In this document: piece after piece, positions 29,355 through 43,988 of the stretch
Layout of the letters: each line of letters begins with the position of its first letter
Position numbering within the stretch: the stretch's first letter is position 1
Source: a virus
Lineage: Duplodnaviria > Caudoviricetes
DNA: 64,000 bases
Reading direction: 5' to 3' (one strand)
IMG/VR virus record: IMGVR_UViG_3300028888_000047
Span: 128,001 to 192,000 of that record
Made by a program: the position numbers and the translations under genes
Notes under the pieces: generated by a model
What the model saw: the letters and a program-made list of their open reading frames with translations, nothing else
What the model was told of the DNA's origin: nothing
Databases searched by the model: none

Positions 29355-29360
29355 GTTTAG

Positions 29361-29682: not shown

Positions 29683-29808
29683 TTAGGAAACATTTTATTA
29701 ACGTTGCTCTACCATCTGAGCTAAATGGAAATTTTACTTCCCACTACCGGATTCGAACCGGCGACCCACGGATTACAAATCATTTTCAACTTTGCTGTTA
29801 GTTTCCTT
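29683..29808 (-). ncRNA. ACAGCAA-stem RNA #7: circularly permuted tRNA mimic (YrlA-like architecture, Thr-derived)
   Basis: Order: stem5', TTTGTAA, T-arm (GCCGG-TTCGAAT-CCGGT), acceptor closed by a loop (AGTGGGA..TTCCATT), D-arm (GCTC-AGATGGTA-GAGC), stem3'. Confidence 0.85.
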
Positions 29809-29815
29809 GCTTGTG

Positions 29816-29891
29816 TAGGATATGAGGGATTCGAACCCACGAACCTTCTGGGTGTAAACCAGACGCTCTAAACCAGCTGAGCTAATATCCT
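29816..29891 (-). tRNA. tRNA-Val(TAC)
   Basis: TCTGG-TTTACAC-CCAGA. Confidence 0.92.
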
Positions 29892-30246
29892 ATGCCTCCT
29901 AATGTCCTATTTTATAATCTCCCTAGGAAAAGAGATAACCGTATCAAGGAACGGTGTGCTACTTGTACTTGGCAGTGGCGACATTATAAACCTTATAGTT
30001 TGTCACAGGACCTTTCAAGTTAATACGTAAGTTAAATAAAGTCTTTTTCCTCCCTACTAACAGATGTTCGAATTAACTACTTGGCCGACGTTCGTTAAGA
30101 AAAAGCAAACCTCACTACAAGCAGAGCAATAGCGTATGTAATCATTTCCACGTTTTGAAATCATCTGACGTTTCAATTCTTACCCCTATGATACCTAATG
30201 ACCGATACATTAAATAACCGTTCTAAGTCTGACTCTCTGTGACTTG

Positions 30247-30322
30247 TGGTGGGTAGGACCGGAGTTGAACCAGTTTAGCCGGATTTTCAGTCCGGTGCAT
30301 ACACCACGTCTGCCACCTACCC
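30247..30322 (-). tRNA. tRNA-Phe(GAA), encoded CCA
   Basis: CCGGA-CTGAAAA-TCCGG. Confidence 0.92.
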
Positions 30323-30482
30323 ATTGTTTGTGACGTTTTAATTGGCGGAGTGCGCCACCTTACTCTCCATTTTAGACCAGCTTATCGCTTTGTCCACCAG
30401 CTATAGGCTACTGCGCCTACTGCTGCACCAAAAATAAATGTCAACATAATTTTAAAATACTTTGAATTAAACATATAGTTAA

Positions 30483-30906
30483 CTATAACAATTCATTACC
30501 ACATTTTCTACATTTTTCCATTAGGTCATTAACAAACGTTTTTAACTCTTCATCCGTATCAAACCTATGGAGTTCAGCATCTTTTTGATTTAAAAAGCAT
30601 ATTTTCACTTCGCCTGGGAAATAGAAAAAATCTTTTTCTTCATTGTATCTAGTCCCATGAAAATGATACCTTGCCAAATTTTTAGCAGAACATGGAGAAT
30701 AATCACTGAACTTATATAAATCCTCTGTAACTGTTGTTACCTTTGGTTTTCTAAAGAGCCTTCTTTTAACAATTGTATCTCCTTTTTTATGAACAAGATA
30801 ATTAGAACAATCTCGTATTTTTACAGGAGTCACATCTATCGATGTTATATTCTTATAATATTCCTTGCTTTTGCAAGATAAAGATTCTAAATTTTCTTTT
30901 ATCATA
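30483..30906 (-). CDS. Hypothetical protein (start MIKENL; the track ORF extends into a tRNA)
   Basis: ORF track, trimmed. Confidence 0.6.
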
Positions 30907-30919
30907 ACAATGTATTTTG

Positions 30920-30992
30920 TGCGCCCACTGGGATTCGAACCCAGGACCCCAAGATTAAAAGTCATGTACTCTGCCTGCTGAGCTATAGGCGC
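30920..30992 (-). tRNA. tRNA-Lys(TTT)
   Basis: Loop CTTTTAA. Confidence 0.92.
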
Positions 30993-31011
30993 ATTTTTAG
31001 TAAAAAAATAG

Positions 31012-31083
31012 TGCGCCCGGAGAATTTCGAAATCTCGACCCCATGTTTAAGAGACACGTGCTCTGCCTCTGAGCTACGAGCGC
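31012..31083 (-). tRNA. tRNA-Lys(CTT)
   Basis: Loop CTCTTAA. Confidence 0.9.
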
Positions 31084-31090
31084 AATATTG

Positions 31091-31163
31091 TGCGCCCACT
31101 GGGACTCGAACCCAGGACTCCCACATTAAAAGTGTGGTGCTCTACCAACTGAGCTATGGGTGC
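31091..31163 (-). tRNA. tRNA-Lys(TTT)
   Basis: Loop CTTTTAA. Confidence 0.93.
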
Positions 31164-31266
31164 ATATTTCTACCTTGCTGCACCATAACTCTTCGTAGGT
31201 ACAGCCTAGACCTGTTTATATGACTTTTGTTTTCGTTTCATGACTTTTATATTTTTTAAATTGTTT

Positions 31267-31617
31267 TTAATTCTTTAATATCATTGTTGTTAAGCAAGGG
31301 TCATCAGTACGAACAAACCCAAACTTTTTGTAAAATTCTACAAGACCTTTTGTAGTCCTATATTTTATATTCTCTCCAGTACGAGGCATTGGCTTTACTA
31401 ATAAACTAATCTCATATCCTTTGAACATTTCGATAGCCTTGTTTAGCATCATAGTCGCAATGCCTTTGCTTGTATAGTTTATGTTGGTTACAACATAATT
31501 GATGTTAACCTTATTATTTCCTTTTTTCTCAATACCTAGTTTCCCTACTCTAACACAACCACTATAAGCGTTTATGTAGTGACATTCACTAGTACTAAAT
31601 GTTTCAAGTCTTATCAT
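31267..31617 (-). CDS. GNAT-family acetyltransferase (start MIRLE)
   Basis: V.....SKGIATMML motif A; L..FYKKFGF. Confidence 0.8.
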   Translation of the reverse strand: MIRLETFSTSECHYINAYSGCVRVGKLGIEKKGNNKVNINYVVTNINYTSKGIATMMLNKAIEMFKGYEISLLVKPMPRTGENIKYRTTKGLVEFYKKFGFVRTDDPCLTTMILKN

Positions 31618-31620
31618 ATG

Positions 31621-31705
31621 CGGTGGGAGAGGGATTCGAACCCCCGGACCCCAAAGGGCCAACAGTTTTCAAGACTGCCTCCTTAAACCACTCGGACATC
31701 CCACC
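31621..31705 (-). tRNA. tRNA-Ser(TGA)
   Basis: GCAGT-CTTGAAA-ACTGT, long V-arm, G73. Confidence 0.93.
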
Positions 31706-31892
31706 AAGCGATGCACAGCAGCAGTATCGTTGGCTTAGTGCTTCCTTACGGCTAGGTAAAATGACTGCTACCTTGAACGGACGTATGGCTAACGTTGTGG
31801 GTTACTTCGTCCCACTTCACAGTCTAACAACCCTAGTCACTCATATGTACATCTTTGAGTGTTGTTCTTGAGACCCACGTCTGGGTGCAAGT

Positions 31893-32657
31893 TTATATTT
31901 TATCTATGTATTCAACTAATTCTTTTTTCCTCCAAGGTAAATTATTCCTTTCACACCATTTTTGAATCGATTTATCAGACACTCCGTATTTTTTTCCTAC
32001 TTTACCGAATGTTTTTAACTCTTTAAAACTGTCAATAAACTCGTCTTTATTAAGGTTTTCTAATTTTCCTCCTTTACTTTCTACGTATTCTATTCCATTT
32101 TTTTTCAAAAATCTTTTAAGTGTTGTCAGCCCTACTTTATATTTTTTGGATATTTCCTTTTTTGATAGTTTGTTATTTATGTCTTCTTTAATATCTTCTA
32201 CATTTAATTTATTCTTTATTATGAATTTACTTTGTTTTTTTTCTTTTACATTTTTATTTTCGAAATAAACTATACTTCTTTCAATTTCTTCTTGTTCTTT
32301 TTTTGCCCTAACATCTTCTCGTTCTTTAGCATGTAATTCTCTATGGCAATTGGCGCATATTAAAACGCATTTATCTGCTTCCTTTTTTAATTTTTCTAAA
32401 CTTCTTGTATCACCAGCAATACCAAATTCTTTTTCATTAGGGTCAAGATGATGAAATTCCAGTGCGTCAATACACTTGTCATACCCGCATATTTCGCATT
32501 TTCCTCCCTTGTATTCTACAAGCCTAATTTTATTTCTTCTTCTAATGTCTAATACTGCTTCTTTTCTACATTCTTTGCACTTATAACTTCCGTTTTGAAG
32601 TAAAACGTGCTCAGTAACACCATGCCTAGGGCATTCTCTCATTATTGTTCTACTCAT
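31893..32657 (-). CDS. HNH homing-type endonuclease with C-terminal HTH repeats
   Basis: CEICGY...LEFHH...ICANCHRELH; inserted in the tRNA array. Confidence 0.85.
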   Translation of the reverse strand: MSRTIMRECPRHGVTEHVLLQNGSYKCKECRKEAVLDIRRRNKIRLVEYKGGKCEICGYDKCIDALEFHHLDPNEKEFGIAGDTRSLEKLKKEADKCVLICANCHRELHAKEREDVRAKKEQEEIERSIVYFENKNVKEKKQSKFIIKNKLNVEDIKEDINNKLSKKEISKKYKVGLTTLKRFLKKNGIEYVESKGGKLENLNKDEFIDSFKELKTFGKVGKKYGVSDKSIQKWCERNNLPWRKKELVEYIDKI

Positions 32658-32722
32658 AATAATTAATCTTTTATTATAAATATAGCAATAAGTCCAAAAA
32701 ATTAAATAATTTTGTTAATTTG

Positions 32723-32794
32723 CGCCTGGTGAGAATTTCGAAATCCCGACCCGCATGTTAACAGCATGCCGCTCTGCCTCTGAGCTAACCAGAC
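32723..32794 (-). tRNA. tRNA-Asn(GTT)
   Basis: GCATG-CTGTTAA-CATGC. Confidence 0.9.
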
Positions 32795-32798
32795 TTTA

Positions 32799-32825
32799 TG
32801 CTCTAACCAACTGAGCTACGTTCCA
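32799..32825 (-). pseudogene. Orphan tRNA 5' half
   Basis: GGAACGTAGCTCAGTTGGTTAGAGCAT with no continuation. Confidence 0.6.
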
Positions 32826-32884
32826 ATTATTCATATTCTTGTGCAAAGATACAAAAAATATTTTTAAAAAACAAATTTTTTTAG

Positions 32885-33172
32885 TTAAAAATTGTTAACC
32901 CATCTGTTACTTATTTCTGCCCAAAAGTTATAACCTTGTGGCGTTTCAGCCCACTCAAAAGAATACTTAAGTATACATCTTTTGTCTTTTATTCTTTCGC
33001 ACAAATCTTGTAAACTATTACCTACATATTTATTGAATTTATTAACATAAGTTTGATTACACCAACCTTTTCTTAATTTGGATTGTATATAAAAGTTTTT
33101 TCTGAACTGCGAATAAACGCCACTTTCTTTTAAAAACCTTTTAAGGCTTTTACAAATTAAATTTTCTTTCAT
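32885..33172 (-). CDS. 'KRFLKE' paralog family protein
   Basis: LKRFLKESGVY...FEWAETPQGYNFW. Confidence 0.7.
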   Translation of the reverse strand: MKENLICKSLKRFLKESGVYSQFRKNFYIQSKLRKGWCNQTYVNKFNKYVGNSLQDLCERIKDKRCILKYSFEWAETPQGYNFWAEISNRWVNNF

Positions 33173-33275
33173 ACAGCAAGTCCAGTACCTTCAATGTTAG
33201 TAATTTCCACTTTTGTTCCATCTGCTGATGATGTAATGATTTTTTTATCTTTCTTTTTCATAGCTTATAGGAATT

Positions 33276-33497
33276 AAAAAAAGCTGCTGAAAACTTTTTT
33301 AGGAGTTCATCAACAGCTTGGCGTTTATAGTGAAGTAAGTGCATTTATTATATTCATATACTTACAAATTCCCAATGCTGTTTTTGAACGTTATTATTAA
33401 AATCTACGGCTGATACAGACATAATATCACTGTTGCATTTACTTGTAGCAAACGCAGCATTAATAATGGATGTGATATGTTTAAAATTCTGTGCCAT
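33276..33497 (-). promoter_or_regulatory. Leader-peptide attenuator A (47-aa uORF 33497-33354, antiterminator, terminator)
   Basis: Terminator AAGCTGTTGATGAACT...AGTTTTCAGCAGCTT-T5; the uORF 3' end GTTCA..AACAGC.TTGG pairs with the terminator 5' arm. Confidence 0.72.
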
Positions 33498-33587
33498 AAT
33501 TTTTTATAAAAAAATTTTATTTGTTTATAATTATTAATTAATTTTCAAAAAACAGTATTTTTCAATAAAAAAATACAAAAAATATTT

Positions 33588-34511
33588 TTATTTTCCAACA
33601 ATCAACAACTCATGTGAAGTCTTGATATTGTCTTTATCGTAATCTCTTTCTGTTCTTGTTTTGCCTATTCTTGTTTCTCCTTGACCCATTGTATATTGCC
33701 AATGAACCTCGTGTATCTCAAAATCCTTATAAGCCTCTCTTACCATTGAACAATCATTATATGAAAGAATGAAACCACCTTTATGTTCGTGCAATAATTT
33801 GCAAAGTAACTCGTGGTTAAATCCATTGTGATGAATTGGAAAGTTCCTCATGGGATATATTCCCTTAAACATCTTGCTGTCTGCACATTCATCCAACACA
33901 TAAGGAGGGTCAAGATAAAGAAATTCTCCTTGATTCTCAGGTATACTTTCCTCAAATCCTTTGCAATATACTCTTAGATTTGGTAAATGGAAATTTTTAA
34001 CCTTTTCAATAGTTGAGTTATATTTCTTCTCTGATTGATATATTGATGACATCCATCCCAAAAAACCCGGTCCATATGACAATTGCATATTGTAATAGTA
34101 ATAAACAGCAGCGTCTATTGGGTCTAATTTACCATCATATCCATCAGTTTTATTCCAATGTTCTTTCAGTATGTTTTTAACCCTCTCATATTCTTCTTTG
34201 GTTGGAGGCATCGCTGACAGACGTTTGTATAACTCTTCGCCATTAACTGTTTGCTGCTGCCAATAGTTAACCAACAAATCAAAAACATCATACGCAACAA
34301 CCTCAAGCCCCAACTCTTTTGCCAATGCAATTTCAACTGAACCGCCTCCTATAAAAGGGCTTACAACCTTTTTTACGTCTTTAGGTAAATGTTCTGTTAT
34401 TAATCCGACTGCAAGTGATTTACCCCCTGCATATCTTAATGGACTGCCATTATATCTTTTATAATTACCATTCTTTCCCTTTAACAGTTTCTGTAACTCT
34501 TCAATTTGCAT
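33588..34511 (-). CDS. Dam-like DNA adenine methyltransferase
   Basis: YAGGKS, SPFIGGG, DPPY. Confidence 0.92.
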   Translation of the reverse strand: MQIEELQKLLKGKNGNYKRYNGSPLRYAGGKSLAVGLITEHLPKDVKKVVSPFIGGGSVEIALAKELGLEVVAYDVFDLLVNYWQQQTVNGEELYKRLSAMPPTKEEYERVKNILKEHWNKTDGYDGKLDPIDAAVYYYYNMQLSYGPGFLGWMSSIYQSEKKYNSTIEKVKNFHLPNLRVYCKGFEESIPENQGEFLYLDPPYVLDECADSKMFKGIYPMRNFPIHHNGFNHELLCKLLHEHKGGFILSYNDCSMVREAYKDFEIHEVHWQYTMGQGETRIGKTRTERDYDKDNIKTSHELLIVGK

Positions 34512-34555
34512 AACTCATTCATTCATACTTTCGATTTAAGTTGTTTCTTTTGTTT

Positions 34556-34882
34556 TCAATCAGCAAAAGAAACTTGCGCTACAACGGCATTATCATCTGT
34601 GTAATCGACTATTTTCACAATGTGTTCCACTTCATACGCTTTAGGTGCGTTATATGGTAAAACAACACCCATTAAATATATCTTACCGTTGTATGTGTAT
34701 TTATCAACATTACCTGAAGTTATTACTTTATGGCCACTATTTAACATTGTGGTAAACGATATTCTATCGCCTTCAATAGCTTCAAATAACTTTGTTGATT
34801 TATTGTATAATTTGTTGTCCTTAACAACCAAATCTTTTTCAAGAATCTCTAATTCTTTACCTGTGTTTGTTTTTATTATCAT
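34556..34882 (-). CDS. Hypothetical protein
   Basis: ORF track. Confidence 0.6.
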   Translation of the reverse strand: MIIKTNTGKELEILEKDLVVKDNKLYNKSTKLFEAIEGDRISFTTMLNSGHKVITSGNVDKYTYNGKIYLMGVVLPYNAPKAYEVEHIVKIVDYTDDNAVVAQVSFAD

Positions 34883-34912
34883 CTGTTTTAACTCGATTGG
34901 TTAAACATATAG

Positions 34913-34987
34913 TACTTCCGGCAAGACTCAAACTTGCGACTTCCAGATTCGTATTCTGGCGTTCTAATTCAACTGAACTACGGAAGC
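34913..34987 (-). tRNA. tRNA-Arg(ACG), A19-U56 variant
   Basis: CCAGA-ATACGAA-TCTGG; T-loop TTTGAGT. Confidence 0.88.
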
Positions 34988-34993
34988 AAATTT

Positions 34994-35170
34994 AAAGGAA
35001 CGCCCTTTAAGGTCTTGGGAATGACCGTTACAAGTCAGTTACTTGTTCTTCGCTGCTTGCCTTAATAAGAACGGTGCTTCACGCTCCTTGCGGATTTAAC
35101 GCTTCTCCGTTCTCTCTCCAGTCTGATTAATACGAAATTTATGCTTTATTAATCTTGCTGTACGTTCCTG
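34994..35170 (-). ncRNA. ACAGCAA-stem RNA #8 with long (~145 nt) cargo
   Basis: CAGGAACG-TACAGCAA...CGTTCCTTT. Confidence 0.65.
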
Positions 35171-35176
35171 TGATTG

Positions 35177-35213
35177 TACACCCGGCAGGATTCGAACCTG
35201 CGACCCACTGCTT
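35177..35213 (-). pseudogene. 3' exon of a split tRNA-Arg(UCU)-type gene
   Basis: AA-GCAGT-GGGTC-GCAGG-TTCGAAT-CCTGC-CGGGTGT-A. Confidence 0.75.
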
Positions 35214-35935
35214 CATGCTACTCTATGTTACCATAGCTAAAATTATCTTTTCCGCGAGCCTTGATTATATGCACGCGACCGAATTCCACAGTTATTTACT
35301 TCTTGAATCTGATAATTTTATTGTAGTCTGGAGCATATCATTACCATATTGAAATTCTTGCAAGTAATCAACCTCTATTCTGCTATACATCAATGTCATT
35401 CAGCCATAGATTATGATAATTTCAACTTAGGCATTCTTATCAGACACGTCTGAATGGAATGTGAGGGTATTCAATGTATTTCCCTCATTTCTCCTCTATA
35501 CTCTCTACACATTTATGAAAATAAATTGAAAATTGACTATGTTATACCATCGTCTTTTTACATACTTTTGGATATTCTGTATGTTTTTTCAACTTATAAA
35601 TGAGTTAGTAGCGTTTGCATCTACTCTCGCCTGATGCTCATATTTATGCTAAGTGTTTCAACTTAGCGGCTGTCTACTATATAAGAATATAACTCATTTA
35701 CAATGCGAACTAAAATTTTGCGCAAATACCATATTTAGTTTCCTCAATTTGTTATCTCATATATGATAAATTTTAGAAGCATTAATTTCAATTTAGCACG
35801 GTATAATCCTTACACATTATTGGTTAGTGTATCACGCCATTCAGTGCCTTGACTAAATCGTAATCTTCTTCAGGTAGGATTTCCACCGTTTTATGGAGAT
35901 TCTACTATGGGATTTCTCGCCATAGCATCCAATTT
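35214..35935 (-). mobile_element. Group I intron (tRNA anticodon type) that has lost its contiguous 5' exon
   Basis: 5' AAATTGGA (IGS); P AAAACGGTGGAAAT; Q ATACCGTGCTAA; R GTGTAGAGAGTATA; S GATATGCTCCAG; terminal G before the tRNA 3' exon. Confidence 0.75.
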
Positions 35936-35967
35936 AGGTTTTACCATCTACAGGTGTTTTTTTATTG

Positions 35968-36017
35968 TGATGGGACTGGGACTCGAACCCAGATGGACTT
36001 ATTAGGTCCGTCAGTTT
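35968..36017 (-). pseudogene. Orphan 3' half of a long-variable-arm tRNA
   Basis: ACTGA, V-arm (GGAC..GTCC), CTGGG-TTCGAGT-CCCAG, TCCCATC-A; no 5' half upstream. Confidence 0.6.
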
Positions 36018-36032
36018 ATTTTCCTATTTTTG

Positions 36033-36106
36033 TGGTTCCAGTGGGACTCCAACCCACAACCGCAGTCTTAGAAGGGCCGTGCTCTATGCTGTTGAGCTAT
36101 GGAACC
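36033..36106 (-). tRNA. tRNA-Arg(TCT), C19-G56 variant
   Basis: Loop CTTCTAA; T-loop TTGGAGT. Confidence 0.87.
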
Positions 36107-36114
36107 GATTGGTA

Positions 36115-36912: not shown

Positions 36913-36978
36913 ATCTATAATGTATTTTATAATAAATATCAGCCAAGTTTGAATAGTTCAGCGGATAGAGCAAAAAAA

Positions 36979-36999: not shown

Positions 37000-37229
37000 A
37001 TCATATATTTTATTGTTTTATTGTTGAGTCTTTCTTAGTGCCATAATCATCATGTAAGAATGGCTCTTTAGGGTCCACCATCTTAGCAATTCTAATTTCA
37101 TGAAAGAAAATCACAAGTGCAACAAAAATAATTATTGCAGAAAAGACCAACAGAAAATTTCCCATATCTATTCTTTATTTATCATTAAACAATACAAATA
37201 TACAAAAAAATATTTAAAAAAAGAAATGT

Positions 37230-37526
37230 TTAACGTAATTTAACACCATAAAATTTCCAACAATAATCAGCGTAATTCATAAGATTGGAATATAGAGTTT
37301 TCCATTCTTCATATGATGGTCTGCCAAAATCTCCATTAGAAGGTATGCTCTTTGCGCGAGCAGCATTACCCGGTTGCATTCTCATTGCTTTTCCTTGTTC
37401 TGGCGTTAAGCCATTAGCTGCATCAGTTTCTTCCCAAGAATGCCATCCATTAGGCGCATTATCTATTTCACAAACTTCTCTTATTACCTTGTTTATTGAT
37501 TCTGTAATGATTTTATTGATATTCAT
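37230..37526 (-). CDS. Hypothetical protein with MNI.KIITE.IN N-terminal motif
   Basis: Shares its N-terminus with 58302..58775. Confidence 0.65.
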   Translation of the reverse strand: MNINKIITESINKVIREVCEIDNAPNGWHSWEETDAANGLTPEQGKAMRMQPGNAARAKSIPSNGDFGRPSYEEWKTLYSNLMNYADYCWKFYGVKLR

Positions 37527-37553
37527 AATGTTTACTTTTTTTCATTATAAATA

Positions 37554-38330
37554 TCATGGATTTATCGTTTCATTTATTCTTTTCAATGAATATTTAACTT
37601 GTTCTTCAGATATTTCACTTCCAACATATATCGGACATTTTTCAGAAAGAATGCATCCTACCGCTGTTGTACCAGTTCCCATAAATGGGTCGTATACGAT
37701 AAAGTCTTTCGAACCAGCATATAGATTTAGTAATTTTACTACTAATTCACTACTGAATGTGGCTTGATTTAACTTATTGGTTTTTTCATCGTTATTTTTA
37801 GCTTCAACAAAGTTATAGAAAACATTGTAATATGTCTGCTTTGTTTTTTCACTAACTGATGCAACTCCTTTATCTATGAAAAAATCGTTAGTCATTCCAT
37901 CCTTTGCAAATACAAACACATATTCCCAAGTTCTACTAAGTCTACATTTGTTTGCCGGAAACGGTAAGCCACTACTTTTTTTCCAACATATAGTATCAAC
38001 CAATCTCCAATTGGTCTTTTCAACTATCTCAGTTACTAACTTATATGGAAGTGCTGGGTTTTCAATGCTATACCCAAAGTTATATAACACAACCCCATTA
38101 TCAACAACAATCCTATTAAATTCATCGAAAACGTTTTTTGTAAATTCTAGGTATTCTTCCTCTGTCTTCCAATCCTTATAGACATCATATCTACCACTAT
38201 CAGCATAACCGCCTTTACGCTTTGTCATATTGTAAGGAGGACTGGTCAATATAAGATTTATAGACTTGTCCTCCATACGTTTCATAGTGTCGAAACAATC
38301 CTCATTGTATATTGCGTTGAACTCAATCAT
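37554..38330 (-). CDS. N4/N6 DNA methyltransferase
   Basis: TSPPY, DPFMGTGTT. Confidence 0.92.
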   Translation of the reverse strand: MIEFNAIYNEDCFDTMKRMEDKSINLILTSPPYNMTKRKGGYADSGRYDVYKDWKTEEEYLEFTKNVFDEFNRIVVDNGVVLYNFGYSIENPALPYKLVTEIVEKTNWRLVDTICWKKSSGLPFPANKCRLSRTWEYVFVFAKDGMTNDFFIDKGVASVSEKTKQTYYNVFYNFVEAKNNDEKTNKLNQATFSSELVVKLLNLYAGSKDFIVYDPFMGTGTTAVGCILSEKCPIYVGSEISEEQVKYSLKRINETINP

Positions 38331-38446
38331 AAGTTACTTTGGCTCTTATTATTTATATAAACAAAATTGTCATATGAATATTTATCGCCATGTATTTTTT
38401 TAGCGTTTTCAACAAAGTCTTTTTTAGTTTTTCTTGGTTGCCACAT
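38327..38446 (-). pseudogene. Truncated homing-endonuclease DNA-binding repeat remnant
   Basis: 39 aa, KTKKDFVENAKKIHGDKYSY...YINN, typical of phage HEG repeats. Confidence 0.5.
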
Positions 38447-38451
38447 ATATT

Positions 38452-39003
38452 TTATTCAATTTTTTCATCCACAACTGCTATGGTATCATTATGCATTGAA
38501 CCATGAGCAACAAGAAGAATCTCCTTAATCTCACATCCGTATTTCTTGCCAATGCCATTTGTATTCCATCCAAATGTGAGACATACACCACCAGGTTTAA
38601 GTATTCTACTAATTTCTTTCTTTATATCAGTCCAAAACGCTATTGATGTTGACTGATAATCAACTGTCTTACCCAACTTCTTATAACACACCTTAACCTG
38701 GGTAGGAGAGAATGGCGCATCGAAGAGAACCATATCTACAGAATTGTCATCAAACATCTTTAAAAAGTCCTTTGCGTCCAAATGATAATCAGTATCATAT
38801 TGTGGGTCAATATCATTTGTTATCGTTCCATTTTTATTGGAGTTTGCAAATGGGTCTAAAATGATAGCATTTTCTGGTAATTTAGCTTTGTATTTATCGA
38901 TTAGTTCTTTAAATGGCTTTATTGAAAATGTGTTTTTATTGGGCATTGCCCATGTTCTCCTAAGTATTACTCCATCTTCATCGATTGTTTTAAATTCAGG
39001 CAT
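38452..39003 (-). CDS. Adenine-specific DNA methyltransferase-like protein
   Basis: ILDPFAN, VLFDAPFS, RILKPGG. Confidence 0.75.
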   Translation of the reverse strand: MPEFKTIDEDGVILRRTWAMPNKNTFSIKPFKELIDKYKAKLPENAIILDPFANSNKNGTITNDIDPQYDTDYHLDAKDFLKMFDDNSVDMVLFDAPFSPTQVKVCYKKLGKTVDYQSTSIAFWTDIKKEISRILKPGGVCLTFGWNTNGIGKKYGCEIKEILLVAHGSMHNDTIAVVDEKIE

Positions 39004-39034
39004 TAAATTTAATAATTTACATATATTATTTTAG

Positions 39035-39116
39035 TACACCCGGTGAGACTCGAACTCACACGCCTCGCGACACTACATCCTTAGTGTAGCCTGTCTACCA
39101 ATTCCAGCACGGGTGC
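39035..39116 (-). tRNA. tRNA-Leu(AAG)
   Basis: CTACA-CTAAGGA-TGTAG, V-arm, A73. Confidence 0.88.
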
Positions 39117-39155
39117 TTTTATATAATATAGTAAATTAAAAGATGGAGTCAATAA

Positions 39156-39584
39156 TTAGCAGCCTCCTCCTCCACATCTTCCACGAGAAAAAATTCCGCC
39201 ACAGCCTCCTCCGGTGCCACAAGATGCGCTTCTATTTCCGCTTCCACCACATCCGCCATATGACTGACGAGTATCAAAAAAACTTCCTCCCCCACAATCG
39301 CCATACGAAGGTGCTACACGTTGTCCGCAGCTACCGTATGTTTTTCCGCCGCAACTACCTAAAATTGGACTTCCATATACAGGTCTATATTCGTCTCTAT
39401 GGTTTCCGTGTGGCATTACTCCTAAATATGGGTCAATATCAGGTTCTTCATTATCATCTGTTGGATAATCAAATTCTCCTGAATTGTCTCTTCTAAATAC
39501 TATACCACGTCTTTCCAATGCTTCTCTTAAAGCTTCTGACAAACCATTGATGTCATCTGAATCAATAAATAGTAACTTACTCAT
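39156..39584 (-). CDS. Gly/Cys-repeat protein, candidate radical-SAM RiPP precursor
   Basis: Acidic N-terminal half, then seven xCG repeats (mostly GxCGG) and a terminal Cys. Confidence 0.6.
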   Translation of the reverse strand: MSKLLFIDSDDINGLSEALREALERRGIVFRRDNSGEFDYPTDDNEEPDIDPYLGVMPHGNHRDEYRPVYGSPILGSCGGKTYGSCGQRVAPSYGDCGGGSFFDTRQSYGGCGGSGNRSASCGTGGGCGGIFSRGRCGGGGC

Positions 39585-39590
39585 AGTTAT

Positions 39591-40643
39591 TTAAATTGTT
39601 GTTATTTTAACTAAATTTTCTTTAAGTTGTTTTTTAAGTGTTTCTTTTATTTCTTCCAACTGTGATTCATTATTTATTATTTTTGAAAATTCTGTATGTT
39701 CTGTAAGGTTTATTCTATCAGTATGTATGTCTGCACAATAATATTTTATTACATTACCATCCTTATTCCAATCAACATAAACCTCTATTTCTGTATCTTC
39801 AATATCAGGAGTTTTGAATATCCAATTATTGAATTCATCGTCATTATTGAAATCCCAATCCTTGTATACATTTCCATCAGGGGTAATTATAACATCATTG
39901 ATATATGTTTTATTACCCATTTTAACAGATGAAAACATCAATCCTCTATGATATGAAATAATACAATTATCTGCCTCAAAAGTTGAAGAGTGACATACTA
40001 AACAGCCTCCACTTCCACTATACATATATTCTTCGCTGAGAAGAGTTTCAATCTCGTCACGGGCCTTTAATGTTGTTGTATCAAGCTTTGTATAATCAGC
40101 CCTTAGATTTATAAGCCTCTTTTCGCTTCCCCATTTCTTAACAAACTCTTTAAACTCATCAAATGAGAAATTTTTATTGATAACCGTATTAATTCTTATC
40201 GGCTTTTCAATTCTGTCTATTAACTTCAAATCAGCCACGCCACTAAATTCGTGACCAATATGTCTTGATATATTAATACCGTGTATCTTTGGCTCAGAAT
40301 TGATATAATCAATTATTTCATCAATGTTCTTAACCAATGGCAATGTTGTGTTAATAAAACACCTTTTATTCATCGCCGATATAATCCTTTTTGTTTCATC
40401 AAGATTAGCAAAAGGCTCGCCACCGGTTAATACATATTCTACCACATCGTAGTTATTGTTTATTTTATTGATTTGTTCTATAATTTTATTCGGATTTAAT
40501 TTGATGTTCTTATACATCTTCTTTGATGTACAAAAAGGACAATTGTTGTCGCAATCAAATGGAACAAATATAGTACAAGCCAAGTTTCTTCTTCCAACTA
40601 AGTATTTCATATTTAAAAAATTAATATTTGTCCAAAGATACAC
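39591..40643 (-). CDS. Radical SAM enzyme
   Basis: CDNNCPFC, TGGEP, additional GGCLVC. Confidence 0.88.
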   Translation of the reverse strand: MYLWTNINFLNMKYLVGRRNLACTIFVPFDCDNNCPFCTSKKMYKNIKLNPNKIIEQINKINNNYDVVEYVLTGGEPFANLDETKRIISAMNKRCFINTTLPLVKNIDEIIDYINSEPKIHGINISRHIGHEFSGVADLKLIDRIEKPIRINTVINKNFSFDEFKEFVKKWGSEKRLINLRADYTKLDTTTLKARDEIETLLSEEYMYSGSGGCLVCHSSTFEADNCIISYHRGLMFSSVKMGNKTYINDVIITPDGNVYKDWDFNNDDEFNNWIFKTPDIEDTEIEVYVDWNKDGNVIKYYCADIHTDRINLTEHTEFSKIINNESQLEEIKETLKKQLKENLVKITTI

Positions 40644-40692
40644 AAAAAAATCAATATGAACAAATATTTTTAGTTAAAAAAAGTTAAATGAA

Positions 40693-41091
40693 TTAAGGCT
40701 TTTTAAACACTTCAGCCCCATCGAATAAATCTCCAACATATAGTTTATTAACATCAATACTTTGCTTGATGCCATCATATTTAAACATTATGTTGAGATT
40801 ATCATCCTTTACATTAACAGTAACTTCTGACCAATCGTCTGCTGCAAGGTCATCTTGCTGCGGGGACCATCCAGTCATTACATTTTTTTGGAGTTTATCG
40901 TATTTGCATAAAACCTGTTCGGCCTTTACTTCTCCACCATTTACATCAGCGAGCATTTTTAATATTGGGTCTTTACACCATTCTGATTTAACGCTTGCCT
41001 TTGGCTTGAGCCAAATGAATATTCCACTCCAAGATATTCTTGAAACAAAACCACCTTCCTCCAAAATCTTGTAACATTCTCCAAATTTCAT
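40693..41091 (-). CDS. DUF2829 / Tad2-like anti-defence nucleotide sponge
   Basis: MKFG.....L..G..V.R..W...FI...W.P.Q.DL.A.DW. Confidence 0.75.
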   Translation of the reverse strand: MKFGECYKILEEGGFVSRISWSGIFIWLKPKASVKSEWCKDPILKMLADVNGGEVKAEQVLCKYDKLQKNVMTGWSPQQDDLAADDWSEVTVNVKDDNLNIMFKYDGIKQSIDVNKLYVGDLFDGAEVFKKP

Positions 41092-41494
41092 ATCTTTTTT
41101 GCTTTAATGAATAATTCTTTTCATATTACAAATATACAAAAAAAAGTTAAAAAAAAGAAATAATAAAAACAAAAAAATTGCACCATTTCTGATGCAATTA
41201 ACGCCCTAACAACGCTCCTATGGAATTACCCAATGGTCTGTCACCTTCTTCTTTGCATAAAGCAGTCGAAGCATTTACAAGGTTCAAGGGCTTTGGTTTG
41301 GCGTTAACCTACTGTAGCCCCTTTTTCGGTTTTATCATTTAATTTGAGTGTGTTGCTACACCAAAGAAACATATTGATTACCCTCTGCATGCTAGAGGTA
41401 GGCTATTAACTCCTACGTGGCTTCCGTTTATGAAGAATTGTTTCACTCTTTGAAAGATGGACACTTCCAATCCTACTTCCTCAAATTAATGTTG

Positions 41495-41567
41495 AGCGGA
41501 TGACCAGGTACCATCTGGCAACCTTTGCCTTGGCAAGGCAACGCTCTAGCAATTGAGCTACACCCGC
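41495..41567 (-). tRNA. tRNA-Gly(GCC), rewired elbow
   Basis: TTGCC-TTGCCAA-GGCAA; D-loop AATTGCTA; T-loop ATGGTAC. Confidence 0.85.
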
Positions 41568-41616
41568 GTGGAGCCGGCACTGTGATGCAACAGCGGTTCA
41601 CCCGGCATGTTATTAG

Positions 41617-41689
41617 AGCAGATGACCGGGTACCATCCGGCAACCTATGCCTTGGAAGGGCATCGCTCTAGCAATTGAGCTACATCTGC
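41617..41689 (-). tRNA. tRNA-Gly(TCC), rewired elbow
   Basis: ATGCC-CTTCCAA-GGCAT; same D- and T-loops as the GCC copy. Confidence 0.85.
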
Positions 41690-41961
41690 AAGATTGGGCA
41701 ATTAAGGTTTGCCCAGTACCTTTTTATTTGCGATAACAAATAAGATTATGCGCTTATTGAAAGTTGTTATCCTTTCTCGTTTGGTACGCACCGTGAGCTG
41801 TTTACGTGTTTCAGCAACCACCTTATTTGCTCTACTCCTTAACCTCGCTCGGTTAAGTAAATATATGATGTATGAAGAACCTATCAACAAATTTGTTTGT
41901 TTTCGCAGAGCATAAGACTTGTAGTTTATCACGCAGGAAACTACCAAAACTGTTATTTTCG

Positions 41962-42984
41962 TTACTGCAAAGTCTTGACAATAGCTGAACGTCCGGTCTC
42001 AGGATTGACTCCCTTACCCTCAAAGCTATTTACCTTCACGCCACGATTTGTCAAATAATCAGCAACTGCCTTTGCTCTCTTCTCAGACAACTTCTGATTA
42101 AATGCAGCAGTACCTTCCTTAGATGCTGTAGCTGTTACATCAACAATTGCATCGTTTCCAATCTGATTAAGAATGTACTTAGCCTCAGGAGAAAGAACTG
42201 CACTACCTGTGGTAAATGTAACCATCCAAACCTCATTTGCCGTTGCAACTGTTGCAGTTTCAACCGTCTTAACTTCAACAACCTTTTCGATTACCTTTGG
42301 CTTACGGCTCTCACACTCTGAAAGTGCGCCATTCAAGCGGTCAATCTCACTAATCATAGCGCCTATGTCATAAGTCTTGAAGTGGTGTGTTCCATTGCTT
42401 GTCTTGAAGTGGTACACATAAGAAACATTCAATGCAAACTGTGCGTTGTGCTTATTGAACTGCAACGCACCAAAATTGCGCAAGTTCCAATAAATAGCGG
42501 GAGTAAAAACAATTGAATGAGCCTTTTTCTTACCAAGATTAAACGCAAGGTCAAGACCAGTTTTACCCGTCAAACTATTGGATGATGTGTTCCACGTATG
42601 AAGCCAACCAATACCACCAATTGCGCTAACCTCAAACACGCGAGGGAAACCCTTATAGCCCCACAAGGCATTAGAAATGTTAAATACGCCATTAGCGCCA
42701 ACATTAGTTGCCTTTACGGCCGTTTTAATGTCTGAGAAATGGTTGTCATTAAGAACAACTAAGCCCTCTAACTGAGCGCCAAAAACAGGGGTGAAATCCT
42801 TCTGCAACTTAATACCTACATTTGTGTTCAAAGGGAACACACTGTTAAAATCAAGAGGAGTAGAAACACCTGCTGTGATTCCGAAGCTAATGTTGTCAAG
42901 CGCATTACTATTCTCAGTAGCAATCTGCGCATTAGCACTTACTACGCCCAACATAAGGGCAAAAATAAACATTAATTTCTTCAT
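41962..42984 (-). CDS. Bacteroidetes OmpA-family outer-membrane protein
   Basis: Signal peptide, beta-barrel region, coiled coil, then NQKLSEKRAKAVADYL. Confidence 0.88.
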   Translation of the reverse strand: MKKLMFIFALMLGVVSANAQIATENSNALDNISFGITAGVSTPLDFNSVFPLNTNVGIKLQKDFTPVFGAQLEGLVVLNDNHFSDIKTAVKATNVGANGVFNISNALWGYKGFPRVFEVSAIGGIGWLHTWNTSSNSLTGKTGLDLAFNLGKKKAHSIVFTPAIYWNLRNFGALQFNKHNAQFALNVSYVYHFKTSNGTHHFKTYDIGAMISEIDRLNGALSECESRKPKVIEKVVEVKTVETATVATANEVWMVTFTTGSAVLSPEAKYILNQIGNDAIVDVTATASKEGTAAFNQKLSEKRAKAVADYLTNRGVKVNSFEGKGVNPETGRSAIVKTLQ

Positions 42985-43052
42985 TTTTTTTTCTAATTTT
43001 TTAATTACAATTTTTATTTTATTATAATTTAAAACAATAAATACTACTTTAA

Positions 43053-43121
43053 AAGGGAACGCCTATTGAAGTTATCGCAATCAGAAATATGTTACAAATG
43101 TAAAATTTGCTGTACGTTCCC
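43053..43121 (-). ncRNA. ACAGCAA-stem RNA #9
   Basis: GGGAACG-TACAGCAA...CGTTCCC; cargo contains TTTGTAA. Confidence 0.72.
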
Positions 43122-43130
43122 ATATATTAA

Positions 43131-43466
43131 TTATGCCTTTGAAATCTTATATTCGTAGGAATAACCTTTAGATTTAGTACCATCTTTTTCGTCGATGTCT
43201 ACAATCTTGTAATGTTCCATCTTACAGTTAAAGCCTCTACGTTTAATGGTTTTTTCTATAAGTTCAATTCCATCATAGCAATATTGAAATTTTCTACTTA
43301 CAATAGGAATTACCAATGTGCTTGGTGGGTCCGTATCAAGTTTTCCCTTCTTTCCGTCTATAAGCCCATAGAATTCAAGCTTATTCATTATAATACCCAA
43401 AAAACATAAGGTATAAGCAGGAAAATCTACCGTTTCCTTTGTGTTCTTTTCATAAACATGTGCCAT
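43131..43466 (-). CDS. Hypothetical protein
   Basis: ORF track. Confidence 0.6.
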   Translation of the reverse strand: MAHVYEKNTKETVDFPAYTLCFLGIIMNKLEFYGLIDGKKGKLDTDPPSTLVIPIVSRKFQYCYDGIELIEKTIKRRGFNCKMEHYKIVDIDEKDGTKSKGYSYEYKISKA

Positions 43467-43505
43467 ATAAACACTATTTTTAAAATTAATACTTTCGTTA
43501 AAAAT

Positions 43506-43620
43506 AAGGAGTCATTTTAAACCCGATAGTGTTAGATTCGAACCAACGACCTCTTGGTAAAATCCAAGGCTCTAACCAACTGAGCTAACTCCCGCAGTAA
43601 ATTTTGCTGTTAGACTCCTT
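43506..43620 (-). ncRNA. ACAGCAA-stem RNA #10 enclosing a whole tRNA-like cloverleaf with a 6-nt anticodon loop
   Basis: AAGGAGTC-TAACAGCAA...GACTCCTT; D-arm, CTTGG-ATTTTA-CCAAG, T-arm GTTGG-TTCGAAT-CTAAC. Confidence 0.82.
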
Positions 43621-43784
43621 GTATATATAACCTGACTGCGTGAAGGGATTATAGGATTAGTTCTACCCTCAGATAGGGGAGGCTTCTTATGTGGGTTTTC
43701 AAATCAATCAGATGTCCCACAGCCGTTCTATACATTTACTATCAAACCACTTGCTATTACTTACACGCCTCAGCGGTTAAATTG

Positions 43785-43857
43785 TCGGGGTGACAGGACT
43801 CGAACCTGCGACCACATCATCCCAAATGACGCATTCTACCGACTGAACTACACCCCG
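43785..43857 (-). tRNA. tRNA-Pro(TGG)
   Basis: CGGGGTG acceptor, loop TTTGGGA. Confidence 0.93.
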
Positions 43858-43861
43858 AAAA

Positions 43862-43988
43862 TTAGGAAACATTTAAAAATTAGCTGGCGCTCTAAACCTA
43901 CTGAGCTATATGCCGTAGCATAAGTGGATTCGAACCACTGGCCTCCTGCTTGGAACAATTTTTTTAGTTCTTTGCTGTGAGTTTCCTT
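43862..43988 (-). ncRNA. ACAGCAA-stem RNA #11: circularly permuted tRNA mimic (Gly-derived)
   Basis: T-arm AGTGG-TTCGAAT-CCACT, acceptor TATGC-TACG-GCATA (UNCG cap), D-arm GCTC-AGTAGGTTTA-GAGC. Confidence 0.85.

What the first reader, a model, noticed from the sequence alone, without database searches (positions are those of the whole stretch)
29683..43988. Two circularly permuted tRNA mimics with capped acceptor stems (YrlA-type topology)
Seen: RNA #7 (29683-29808) and RNA #11 (43862-43988) read T-arm, then an acceptor stem closed by a loop, then D-arm. The tRNA is opened at the anticodon arm and the ACAGCAA stem replaces it. #11 caps the acceptor with a UACG (UNCG) tetraloop, which suggests selection for a stable, non-chargeable elbow mimic. 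Remnant anticodon loops (TTTGTAA Thr; TTCCAA Gly) sit at the junction, implying independent origins from different tRNAs. tRNA finders would miss or mis-call these.
Basis: partly seen in the sequence, partly recalled or inferred. Interest (0 to 1): 0.8.

Follow-up and report, generated by a model that had tools for sequence, protein, structure and literature searches.

The report
Phage tRNA-shaped Y-like RNAs
Two small RNA genes in the tRNA island of a 317-kb sheep-gut phage fold like tRNAs written in rotated order with the acceptor end sealed; they belong to a widespread, uncatalogued RNA family whose shared "handle" travels with a hidden Ro60-shaped protein that this phage also encodes, so they are most likely a new variety of Y RNA.

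Summary
Both elements are real. On the minus strand, 29807-29685 and 43987-43864 each read: 7-bp closing stem, unpaired UNACAGCAA box, anticodon-loop remnant, variable loop, T-arm, hairpin-capped acceptor stem, D-arm, closing stem. A covariance model built from 37 unrelated phage RNAs, without these two, finds them at 91 and 65 bits. Across 65 such RNAs the capped stem pairs 93% in exact tRNA register (controls about 45%).

They are two of ten "ACAGCAA-handle" cassettes in this genome; the other payloads are unrelated or partial tRNA shapes.

They are not members of Rfam YrlA: scores are 38 and 26 bits against a threshold of 69, the GNCGAA Ro-binding motif is absent, and there is no TROVE gene. 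But the window encodes a DUF2828/DUF7788 protein (56574-58178) whose model matches Ro60 over its full length (Z 13-18). This family co-occurs with the handle in 20 of 21 near-complete phage records against 0 of 15 controls.

The same handle marks Dictyostelium Class I RNAs. The UACG loop is not conserved in relatives, and a tRNA-Gly origin for the second RNA is unsupported beyond its anticodon. Binding and function are inferred, not shown.

This scan has met the same system before on other DNA, and a third copy in this genome.

The parts
29685..29807 (-). RNA #7, 123 nt: handle plus permuted tRNA-Thr(UGU)-like body
   Evidence: R1 91.3 bits. YrlA 38.2 bits, below threshold. 89% identical to the phage tRNA-Thr when re-permuted.
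29801..29807 (-). #7 5' arm of closing stem (AGGAAAC)
   Evidence: Pairs with 29685-29691 in the MFE and centroid folds. The arm covaries among the genome's ten cassettes.
29792..29798 (-). #7 invariant ACAGCAA box, unpaired
   Evidence: Invariant in all 54 aligned RNAs, though the search patterns required it.
29768..29781 (-). #7 GA + UUUGUAA + UCCGU: cis part of the nicked anticodon stem with a whole Thr(UGU) loop
   Evidence: 3 bp in trans plus 2 bp in cis. L064 shows a compensatory GA/UC to GG/CC change.
29746..29762 (-). #7 T-arm (GCCGG UUCGAAU CCGGU)
   Evidence: T stem 99% paired across 65 RNAs.
29724..29745 (-). #7 acceptor stem, 8 bp, capped by GUAAAA
29706..29721 (-). #7 D-arm (GCUC AGAUGGUA GAGC)
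29685..29691 (-). #7 3' arm of closing stem (GUUUCCU); tRNA-Ile starts 5 nt downstream
43864..43987 (-). RNA #11, 124 nt: handle plus permuted tRNA-like body with a UCC anticodon remnant
   Evidence: R1 64.8 bits. YrlA 25.8 bits, partial match.
43972..43978 (-). #11 ACAGCAA box
43945..43956 (-). #11 GUUCCAA loop remnant + GCAGG (3' strand of anticodon stem)
   Evidence: Conserved in L060, L146 and L064, with a central mismatch.
43923..43939 (-). #11 T-arm (AGUGG UUCGAAU CCACU)
43909..43922 (-). #11 short acceptor-like stem (5 bp) capped by UACG
   Evidence: Atypical for the family.
43889..43906 (-). #11 D-arm
56574..58178 (-). 534-aa DUF2828/DUF7788 protein with the Ro60 fold (helical ring + vWA with DxSxS MIDAS); candidate protein partner
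   Evidence: Co-occurrence. Adjacency elsewhere.
19449..19538 (-). Handle cassette: payload is a GUA anticodon-like hairpin plus a T-arm (ARAGORN calls part of it tRNA-Tyr)
27984..28026 (-). Handle cassette, 43 nt, short payload
28117..28170 (-). Handle cassette, 54 nt
29278..29352 (-). Handle cassette, 75 nt, between tRNA-Ala and the tmRNA gene
43055..43121 (-). Handle cassette, 67 nt
43508..43618 (-). Handle cassette enclosing a normal-order tRNA-like RNA with a 6-nt anticodon loop
45326..45382 (-). Handle cassette, 57 nt, just upstream of tRNA-Glu

Best explanation
Both elements are genes for small non-coding RNAs of a modular phage family. The module they all share is a 'handle': a 6-7 bp helix that joins the RNA's two ends, followed on the 5' side by an unpaired UNACAGCAA box. 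The variable module here is a tRNA body written in rotated order, with an intact D/T elbow and the acceptor end sealed by a hairpin. The anticodon arm is opened where the handle enters, so #7 still shows a whole Thr(UGU) anticodon hairpin. The RNAs lie 5-7 nt from flanking tRNA genes and are probably released from the tRNA transcripts by RNase P and 3'-end processing of those neighbours (inferred). The handle most likely docks the phage's own Ro60-shaped protein (window 56574-58178), which would make a Y-RNA-like particle: ring protein on the handle, tRNA mimic as the effector module that recruits or titrates tRNA-binding factors. This phage also carries RtcB, a CCA-adding-type enzyme and TyrRS, which points to the phage-host conflict over tRNA. 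Shown here: RNA structure, conservation and covariation, family membership, the Ro60 fold of the protein, and co-occurrence and adjacency. Inferred: expression and processing, protein-RNA binding, and biological role.
For: Structure: (93.9% of cells paired against 63% in shuffles, 0 of 500 reaching the observed value; covariation score 0.82 against 0.11-0.20; all 7 cap pairs change on both sides). Independent model R1 finds #7 and #11 at 91.3 and 64.8 bits. Family: ten cassettes in this genome with covarying arms; 79 of 89 pattern hits in other phages have the closing arm; Felix O1 has four cassettes directly after ORF86. Protein: tblastn of ORF86 gives E 9e-32 to window 56574-58178; Pfam DUF7788 2.9e-19 (above the cut-off) and DUF2828 7e-6 (25.6 bits, below its 29-bit cut-off); AF2 model pLDDT 77.7; Foldseek's top 12 hits are all Ro60 over the full length; VIA Z 13.3-17.8 over 383-429 residues against 9.7 or less for vWA-only hits; MIDAS DxSxS invariant. 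Linkage: DUF7788 is present in 38 of 48 handle-bearing records, 20 of 21 near-complete ones, against 0 of 47 and 0 of 15 controls. Where the gene lies in the fetched locus, it is a median 370 nt from the RNA and on the same strand in 24 of 24 cases. Published hint: Bas63 gp130 is Ro60-like by structure, lies upstream of the tRNAs and 'some tRNA genes are possibly Y RNAs' (PMC11482910). RtcB and a CCA-adding-type gene are present.
Against: In this genome the protein gene is 11 kb from the nearest cassette, not adjacent. The handle lacks the published Ro60-binding signature GNCGAAN0-1G / CGAA. The control records are smaller and tRNA-poorer than many positives, so part of the co-occurrence could reflect a shared 'large phage with tRNA island' background. 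The protein-anchored reciprocal test is only moderately positive: 37% of same-strand boxes close against 18-21% by chance. Ten of 48 handle-bearing records show no DUF7788 (nine are under 90% complete; one is rated 100%).
Confidence: 0.6

Rival explanations
1. They are tRNA-shaped decoys or baits that act without the Ro60-like protein. For example, they might soak up host tRNA-targeting nucleases or tRNA-modifying enzymes, with the handle serving only to clamp and stabilise the RNA.
For: The anticodon-loop remnants fit the YU-NNN-R-N consensus in 29 of 65 RNAs and show at least 15 anticodons. The phage already has decoding tRNA-Thr(UGU) and tRNA-Gly(UCC), so the mimics are not needed for decoding. 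RtcB, a CCA-adding-type enzyme and TyrRS point to a conflict over tRNA.
Against: It does not explain an invariant unpaired 7-nt box shared with non-tRNA payloads, nor the tight same-strand linkage to one protein family.
Confidence: 0.15
2. They are ordinary YrlA RNAs that serve a canonical TROVE-type Ro60/Rsr, here supplied by the Bacteroidota host.
For: They have the same V-T-acceptor-D order as YrlA. RF02553 aligns #7 over its full length at 38.2 bits. Bacteroides thetaiotaomicron carries a TROVE gene (control line).
Against: Scores are far below the gathering score of 69, and #11's 25.8 bits equals a tandem-tRNA artefact at 25.4. GNCGAA is absent. There is no TROVE gene in this phage or in five other handle-bearing records. 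The handle tracks DUF7788 instead.
Confidence: 0.1
3. They are permuted or split tRNA precursors that mature into tRNA-like molecules with a free acceptor end. RNase P would cut in the cap loop and CCA would be added, possibly with removal of the handle and ligation by RtcB.
For: #7 has an 8-bp cap, an intact anticodon loop and 89% identity to tRNA-Thr. M. smegmatis YrlA is cut by RNase P and receives CCA in vivo. The phage encodes RtcB and a CCA-adding-type enzyme.
Against: #11 has only a 5-bp cap. The handle also sits on payloads with no tRNA features. Canonical isoacceptors already exist. I saw no bulge-helix-bulge-like junction. The handle is conserved as if it were functional, not spliced out.
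Confidence: 0.08
4. The handle is transcript punctuation (a processing, stability or promoter-proximal signal of the tRNA operons), and the tRNA-like pieces are debris of tRNA gene rearrangements.
For: The cassettes abut tRNA genes with 5-7 nt gaps. Some payloads are very short.
Against: Covariation that preserves a capped acceptor stem in tRNA register across about 60 phage contigs is not expected for debris. The same two RNAs are conserved in related phages. The link to one protein family would be unexplained.
Confidence: 0.07

Closest known systems
YrlA, the tRNA-like Y RNA of bacterial and mycobacteriophage Ro60/Rsr (Rfam RF02553; Chen et al. 2014, PMC4201824)
   Same: A modular RNA closed by a terminal stem. 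The tRNA-like module has the order variable region, T-arm, acceptor-like stem-loop, D-arm. The elbow nucleotides are conserved. The gene lies in a genome that encodes a Ro60-fold protein.
   Different: It fails the Rfam threshold (38 and 26 bits against 69). It has no GNCGAAN0-1G motif and carries an unpaired ACAGCAA box instead. The partner family is DUF2828/DUF7788, which the Pfam TROVE model does not see. The anticodon-loop remnants are retained. The same handle also carries non-tRNA payloads.
Class I RNAs of dictyostelid social amoebae (Rfam RF01414; Kjellin et al. 2021, PMC7919456; search pattern GTTGRC-CTTACAGCAA...GTCAAC in PMC5054030)
   Same: The same handle design and the same box: a 6-bp covarying stem joining the 5' and 3' ends, immediately followed by an unpaired conserved motif ending in UNACAGCAA, with the rest variable.
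   Different: Class I RNAs are 42-65 nt, eukaryotic, reported as unique to Dictyostelia, and have an RRM protein (Rnp1A/Cibp) as the only shown direct binder. The RF01414 model hits none of the ten cassettes here. No tRNA-like payloads are described for them.
Thermus phage phiLo Ro60 with Yrl1/Yrl2 (PMC12135203; PDB 9KOP, 9L5Y)
   Same: A phage-encoded Ro60-fold ring with phage-encoded partner RNAs. Its structure is among the top fold matches of the window protein.
   Different: The phiLo protein is a recognisable Ro60 homologue. Its Yrl RNAs were found by the CGAA motif next to the gene and are not described as tRNA-shaped.
Bas63 gp130 / Felix O1 ORF86 (PhageMaP preprint, PMC11482910)
   Same: The same protein family (tblastn E 9e-32). 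The gene lies directly upstream of the tRNA block, which in Felix O1 holds four ACAGCAA cassettes, one of them permuted-tRNA-like. The authors speculated that some 'tRNA genes' are Y RNAs.
   Different: The preprint gives no RNA family, motif or structure. It reports gp130 as a counter to the Ppl defence system.
Circularly permuted tRNA genes of the red alga Cyanidioschyzon merolae (from my own knowledge: Soma et al. 2007)
   Same: The 3' half of the tRNA is encoded upstream of the 5' half, joined through the acceptor end.
   Different: Those mature into normal tRNAs through a circular intermediate and bulge-helix-bulge processing. Here the junction carries a conserved handle that also occurs on non-tRNA RNAs, and #11 cannot form a 7-bp acceptor stem.

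Membership tests
YrlA (Rfam RF02553) | Order: variable region, T-arm, acceptor-like stem-loop, D-arm, inside a terminal stem | tested here: met
YrlA (Rfam RF02553) | Score at or above the curated gathering score (69 bits) | tested here: not met
   38.2 bits (#7) and 25.8 bits (#11, partial). A tandem tRNA-Lys junction scores 25.4.
YrlA (Rfam RF02553) | GNCGAAN0-1G Ro60-binding motif on the 5' strand of the stem module | tested here: not met
   The motif definition is. #7 has only GUUGAAAAUG at the aligned place, and #11 has nothing comparable.
YrlA (Rfam RF02553) | Encoded beside a TROVE-domain Ro60/Rsr gene | tested here: not met
   No PF05731 match in this genome or in five other handle-bearing records. 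A Ro60-fold protein of another Pfam family lies 11 kb away.
YrlA (Rfam RF02553) | tRNA-type modifications (D, pseudouridine), binding by Ro60 | not testable with these tools
   Needs RNA from infected cells.
ACAGCAA-handle RNAs (uncatalogued; phages) | 6-7 bp covarying stem joining the two ends, 2-3 nt spacer, invariant unpaired ACAGCAA | tested here: met
   The arms covary among the ten copies in this genome.
ACAGCAA-handle RNAs (uncatalogued; phages) | Recognised by a model built from other phages' permuted-tRNA members | tested here: met
   R1: 91.3 and 64.8 bits, both full length.
ACAGCAA-handle RNAs (uncatalogued; phages) | Genome also encodes a DUF2828/DUF7788 Ro60-fold protein | tested here: met
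Dictyostelium Class I RNA (Rfam RF01414) | Short terminal stem plus an adjacent conserved motif (C)UUACAGCAA | tested here: met
   The printed pattern GTTGRC-CTTACAGCAA...GTCAAC and conserved positions T3, C6, C9, A10, A11 fit ACUAACAGCAA here.
Dictyostelium Class I RNA (Rfam RF01414) | Match to the family's covariance model; length 42-65 nt | tested here: not met
   None of the ten cassettes is hit (best E 0.7, elsewhere). #7 and #11 are 123-124 nt.
Ro60 / TROVE proteins | HEAT-repeat ring plus C-terminal vWA domain with MIDAS | tested here: met
   Model pLDDT 77.7. Ro60 chains are the top hits over the full length. DxSxS, T and D are invariant.
Ro60 / TROVE proteins | Sequence match to Pfam TROVE (PF05731) or to solved Ro60 chains | tested here: not met
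Permuted tRNA genes that mature into tRNAs | 7-bp acceptor stem with processable ends, and a junction that restores a normal anticodon arm | tested here: inconclusive
   #7: 8-bp cap, and the stem is restorable as 3+2 bp. #11: 5-bp cap only. Processing cannot be tested here.

The most novel reading that the evidence does not exclude
The stem-plus-ACAGCAA handle is the universal docking site of a hidden Ro60 branch (DUF2828/DUF7788) that spans phages of many hosts and reaches the 'amoeba-only' Class I RNAs of Dictyostelia. In phages, the ring uses interchangeable tRNA-shaped payloads that still display specific anticodon loops (Thr UGU, Gly UCC here) as baits. The baits would bring anticodon nucleases, or the phage's RtcB / CCA-adding repair enzymes, to the particle. 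That would be a programmable tRNA-defence or repair RNP.
Probability: 0.2. Interest if true: 0.85.

Novelty: new variant of a known kind. Interest (0 to 1): 0.6.

Why it matters
Ro60-Y RNA particles are known from animals, some bacteria and a few phages, always with a recognisable TROVE protein and a CGAA-type binding helix. Here the same two-module logic (protein-docking handle plus tRNA mimic) appears with a different handle and a protein family still listed as 'domain of unknown function'. It occurs in dozens of unrelated phages, including culturable Felix O1-type phages. That gives DUF2828/DUF7788 a testable function. It explains many 'spacers' and odd tRNA calls in phage tRNA islands. It offers a tractable model (Bas63/Felix O1) for what tRNA-shaped Y RNAs do. 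It also raises a testable link to the unexplained Class I RNAs of social amoebae. For annotation, tandem tRNAs score up to 50 bits on such models, so the handle and closing stem must be required.

Tried and rejected
1. Expression: sheep-gut metatranscriptome runs hold the stretch (X1 with 0.99 and X3 with 0.61 of the sampled words). They are kept as contigs and may carry DNA.
2. Canonical Ro60: no Pfam TROVE match in this genome or in five handle-bearing records.
3. The only vWA hit outside the window (genome 235401-236099) is a 232-aa stand-alone phage vWA protein between a weak, below-cut-off metallopeptidase-like match and a DNA methylase, not a Ro60.
4. Sequence searches of the window protein and of Felix O1 ORF86 against PDB chains found nothing. 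Only fold comparison shows the Ro60 likeness.
5. RF01414 (Class I RNA) does not hit the cassettes.
6. tRNA-Gly origin of #11: not supported by body similarity.
7. UNCG cap as a family trait: rejected.
8. My first genome scan for cassettes was too loose (379 hits) and was replaced by a strict one. Variant boxes with one mismatch gave only chance-like hits in coding DNA.
9. The MAFFT alignment of all 54 units scrambled the cap and the 3' arm, so helices were measured from anchors and on a cleaner 37-sequence alignment. The closing stem itself could not be put into model R1.
10. The protein-anchored reciprocal test gave only a moderate excess.
11. The other genes interleaved with the RNA island showed nothing RNA-specific: DNA methylases, TelA-like, radical SAM, endonuclease V-like, cytidylyltransferase.

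Full report
SOURCE AND SETTING. The window is bases 128001-192000 of a 317-kb IMG/VR virus record, 34% G+C, with CheckV completeness about 95%. Sequencing runs that hold it are sheep-gut samples. Window 19-46 kb is an RNA island on the minus strand, with 28 tRNA calls and a tmRNA. Both elements of the finding lie in it.

THE OBSERVATION. Read on the minus strand, 29807-29685 (#7) and 43987-43864 (#11) have the same plan:
- a 5' arm AGGAAAC, two bases, then ACAGCAA;
- an A/U-rich linker;
- a 7-nt piece that looks like an anticodon loop (UUUGUAA in #7, GUUCCAA in #11), then the 3' strand of an anticodon stem;
- a 5-nt variable loop;
- a textbook T-arm with UUCGAAU;
- a stem closed by a short loop, lying exactly where the acceptor stem belongs;
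- U8-A9 and a textbook D-arm with the G18-G19 pair;
- a few bases of anticodon-stem 5' strand and an A-rich linker;
- the 3' arm GUUUCCU.

G15 and C48, G46 and the D/T elbow bases are all in place (read from the sequence with standard tRNA numbering). ARAGORN and the Rfam tRNA model do not call either RNA. Single-sequence folding recovers the closing stem, T-arm, cap and D-arm, with modest z-scores of -2.0 and -1.9. The case for structure therefore rests on comparison with relatives.

THEY BELONG TO A LARGER FAMILY. The motif GGNNNN-(2-3 nt)-ACAGCAA with a perfectly complementary arm downstream occurs ten times in the genome. All ten are on the minus strand, nine in this window. The arms covary (GGAAAC, GGGAAC, GGTAAC, GGAAGC, GGAGTC, GGAAAG, each with its complement), while ACAGCAA never changes. 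Payloads range from 19 nt to about 130 nt. Three are permuted tRNA-like: #7, #11 and one at genome 231045-231197. One is a whole normal-order tRNA-like RNA (43508-43618). One is an anticodon-like hairpin plus T-arm (19449-19538). Five are short.

The same handle occurs in other phages:
- Closed cassettes were found in 11 loci from a loose pattern scan, including 35-nt bare hairpins.
- A pattern demanding box, T-loop and D-arm in that order gave 89 matches. Of these, 79 also have the closing arm, giving 65 distinct RNAs from about 60 contigs.
- Direct relatives of #7 are in L060, L064 and L152.
- Direct relatives of #11 are in L060, L146 and L064.

STRUCTURE TESTS. Using the invariant T-loop and D-arm as anchors across 65 RNAs:
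- The T stem pairs in 99% of cells.
- The 7 bp immediately after the T stem pair with the 7 bp immediately before U8 in 93% of cells. Controls give 44-45% when the partner strand is slid by 1-3 nt, and a mean of 46% (maximum 54%) when partners are swapped between RNAs. There are 55 distinct strand sequences.

On a 37-sequence alignment that excludes my RNAs and their relatives:
- 93.9% of cells pair against 63% in shuffles (0 of 500 reach the observed value).
- The covariation score is 0.82 against 0.20 shuffled and 0.11-0.17 slid.
- All seven cap pairs change on both sides.

A covariance model from that alignment (R1) finds #7 at 91.3 bits (E 1e-15), #11 at 64.8 bits (E 2e-10) and the Felix O1 copy at 33.5 bits. 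A tandem tRNA-Lys junction at 31038-31152 scores 50.7 bits, and 25.4 bits on YrlA. That is the artefact level, and both RNAs exceed it.

WHERE THE tRNA IS OPENED. The anticodon stem is usually kept for only 2-3 bp next to the core. In 43 of 65 RNAs the bases just 5' of the loop remnant complete a 5-bp stem; swap controls give a mean of 16 and a maximum of 23. In #7 and its relatives the split is 3 bp in trans plus 2 bp in cis, with a compensatory change in L064 (GA/UC to GG/CC). So the handle enters as a nick in the 5' strand, and a whole Thr(UGU) hairpin can still form. In #11 and its relatives the whole 5' strand is in trans, with a conserved central mismatch, and the loop is open at its 5' edge. 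Twenty-nine of the 65 loop pieces fit YU-NNN-R-N, with at least 15 different anticodons.

ORIGINS. Re-permuted #7 is 89% identical (59 of 66 aligned positions) to the phage's own tRNA-Thr(UGU). #11 is 75-78% identical to several tRNAs and no closer to tRNA-Gly. Caps are mostly 7-8 bp with loops of many lengths. The tetraloops I tallied were mostly GNRA, and none was UNCG. The 5-bp stem with a UACG loop of #11 is therefore a local feature.

COMPARISON WITH YrlA. Chen et al. 2014 define YrlA by the order V, T, acceptor-like stem-loop, D, inside a stem module marked by GNCGAAN0-1G. It is encoded next to a TROVE Ro60 gene. The topology is met. The Rfam model gives 38.2 bits (full length) and 25.8 bits (partial) against a threshold of 69. 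The motif is absent, and no TROVE gene exists in this genome or in five other handle-bearing records, two of them rated complete.

THE PROTEIN PARTNER. The preprint says Bas63 gp130 is Ro60-like by structure, lies upstream of the tRNAs, and that some tRNA genes may be Y RNAs (PMC11482910).
- In Felix O1, ORF86 (Pfam DUF2828 + DUF7788) is followed at once by four ACAGCAA cassettes, one with a T/cap/D body.
- tblastn of ORF86 against my genome gives E 9e-32 over about 510 residues, at window 56574-58178 on the minus strand. This is a 534-aa protein with DUF7788 (2.9e-19, above the cut-off) and a weak DUF2828 match (7e-6, 25.6 bits, just below its 29-bit cut-off).
- It has 1,489 relatives at E of 1e-5 or better.
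- An AlphaFold model made from a 30-sequence alignment has pLDDT 77.7 and pTM 0.75.
- Foldseek's first 12 PDB matches are all Ro60 (Xenopus, Deinococcus, Thermus phage phiLo, human), aligned over the full length. The next hits are vWA domains only, at E above 0.03.
- VIA-align gives Ro60 chains Z 13.3-17.8 over 383-429 residues, against 9.7 or less over about 165 residues for vWA-only chains.
- The MIDAS residues (D324-x-S326-x-S328, T395, D428) are invariant.

LINKAGE OF RNA AND PROTEIN.
- DUF7788 is found in 38 of 48 handle-bearing records and in 20 of 21 that are at least 90% complete. These include complete phages of 42-87 kb. It is found in 0 of 47 control records (0 of 15 near-complete).
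- In 24 of 62 loci the gene lies within the fetched stretch, at a median of about 370 nt from the tRNA-like RNA and on the same strand in 24 of 24.
- Starting from the protein (78 loci, plus or minus 10 kb), ACAGCAA is 2.7 times commoner on the protein's strand (237 against 87). 37% of those boxes close into cassettes, against 18-21% for the opposite strand and for shuffles. This is a weaker but consistent signal.
- In my genome the gene is on the same strand, 11 kb upstream of the nearest cassette. A TyrRS gene lies directly downstream of it.
- The genome also has RtcB and a CCA-adding-type nucleotidyltransferase.

THE HANDLE IN THE LITERATURE. Kjellin et al. 2021 describe a 6-bp covarying stem joining the ends and an unpaired 11-nt motif next to the 5' arm, with T, C, C, A, A conserved at positions 3, 6, 9, 10 and 11. 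The pattern printed in the Fragrep paper is GTTGRC-CTTACAGCAA...GTCAAC. This is the same handle. However, the RF01414 model hits none of my cassettes, and the sizes and taxa differ. I found no paper that describes the phage RNA family or assigns a function to DUF2828.

VERDICT. The YrlA-type topology is right, but membership of YrlA is not met. The best reading (about 0.6) is a Y-RNA-like particle with a different handle and a divergent Ro60-fold partner, in which these two RNAs are tRNA-mimic members of a ten-member family. Their position 5-7 nt from flanking tRNA genes suggests release by tRNA processing enzymes. Binding, processing and function are inferred. The rivals are a protein-independent decoy, host-Rsr YrlA, maturation to a CCA-bearing tRNA-like molecule, and transcript punctuation; they are listed with their tests. 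The scan has met this system before on other DNA, and a third copy in this genome. My scores rest on the tests run here.

Noticed in passing
window 43508-43618 (-): A handle cassette encloses a complete normal-order tRNA-like RNA. ARAGORN calls it 'tRNA-???' with anticodon 'tt'; Rfam tRNA scores it 41 bits. Its anticodon loop has only 6 nt and its acceptor stem has one mismatch. So the same handle is used on both permuted and unpermuted tRNA bodies.
   Followed up: partly
window 19449-19538 (-): ARAGORN's 70-nt 'tRNA-Tyr' (19454-19523) is really the payload of a handle cassette: a GUA anticodon-like hairpin plus a T-arm, with no D-arm. It is likely a mis-call.
   Followed up: partly
window 31038-31152 (-): The junction of two tandem tRNA-Lys genes scores 25.4 bits on Rfam YrlA and 50.7 bits on my model R1. 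The acceptor strands of the paralogous neighbours mimic a capped stem. This is a general false-positive trap for permuted-tRNA searches.
   Followed up: yes
window 28892-29262 (-) and 29278-29352 (-): The phage tmRNA gene (Rfam 47.9 bits against a threshold of 47; tag GENVDSPAYAYAMAA) lies 16 nt downstream of a handle cassette. The permuted-tmRNA model also gives a sub-threshold hit at 29131-29416.
   Followed up: no
window 26846-26923 (-): There is a tRNA with a CUA anticodon (ARAGORN 'tRNA-Pyl'), that is, an amber suppressor. This may point to stop-codon reassignment late in infection.
   Followed up: no
window 44073-44154 (-): A sub-threshold tRNA-Sec-like hit (32.4 bits against 47) lies about 90 nt upstream of #11. 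No tRNA finder calls it.
   Followed up: no
window 54959-56245 (-), 59039-60004 (-), 336-1766 (-); genome 103617-104807 (-): A tyrosyl-tRNA synthetase gene lies directly downstream of the Ro60-like gene, and a sigma-70-like factor lies upstream of it. A CCA-adding-type nucleotidyltransferase is at the window's start, and RtcB is elsewhere in the genome.
   Followed up: partly
record G047 (contig of locus L188), 12519-13070: In a complete 42-kb phage the DUF7788 match is interrupted by four in-frame TGA codons. This may be TGA recoding rather than a broken gene.
   Followed up: no
genome 235401-236571 (-), outside the window: A stand-alone vWA protein (phrog_7371) is paired with a weak, below-cut-off match to a phage metallopeptidase family, next to a DNA methylase. 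It is unrelated to the Ro60-like gene.
   Followed up: yes
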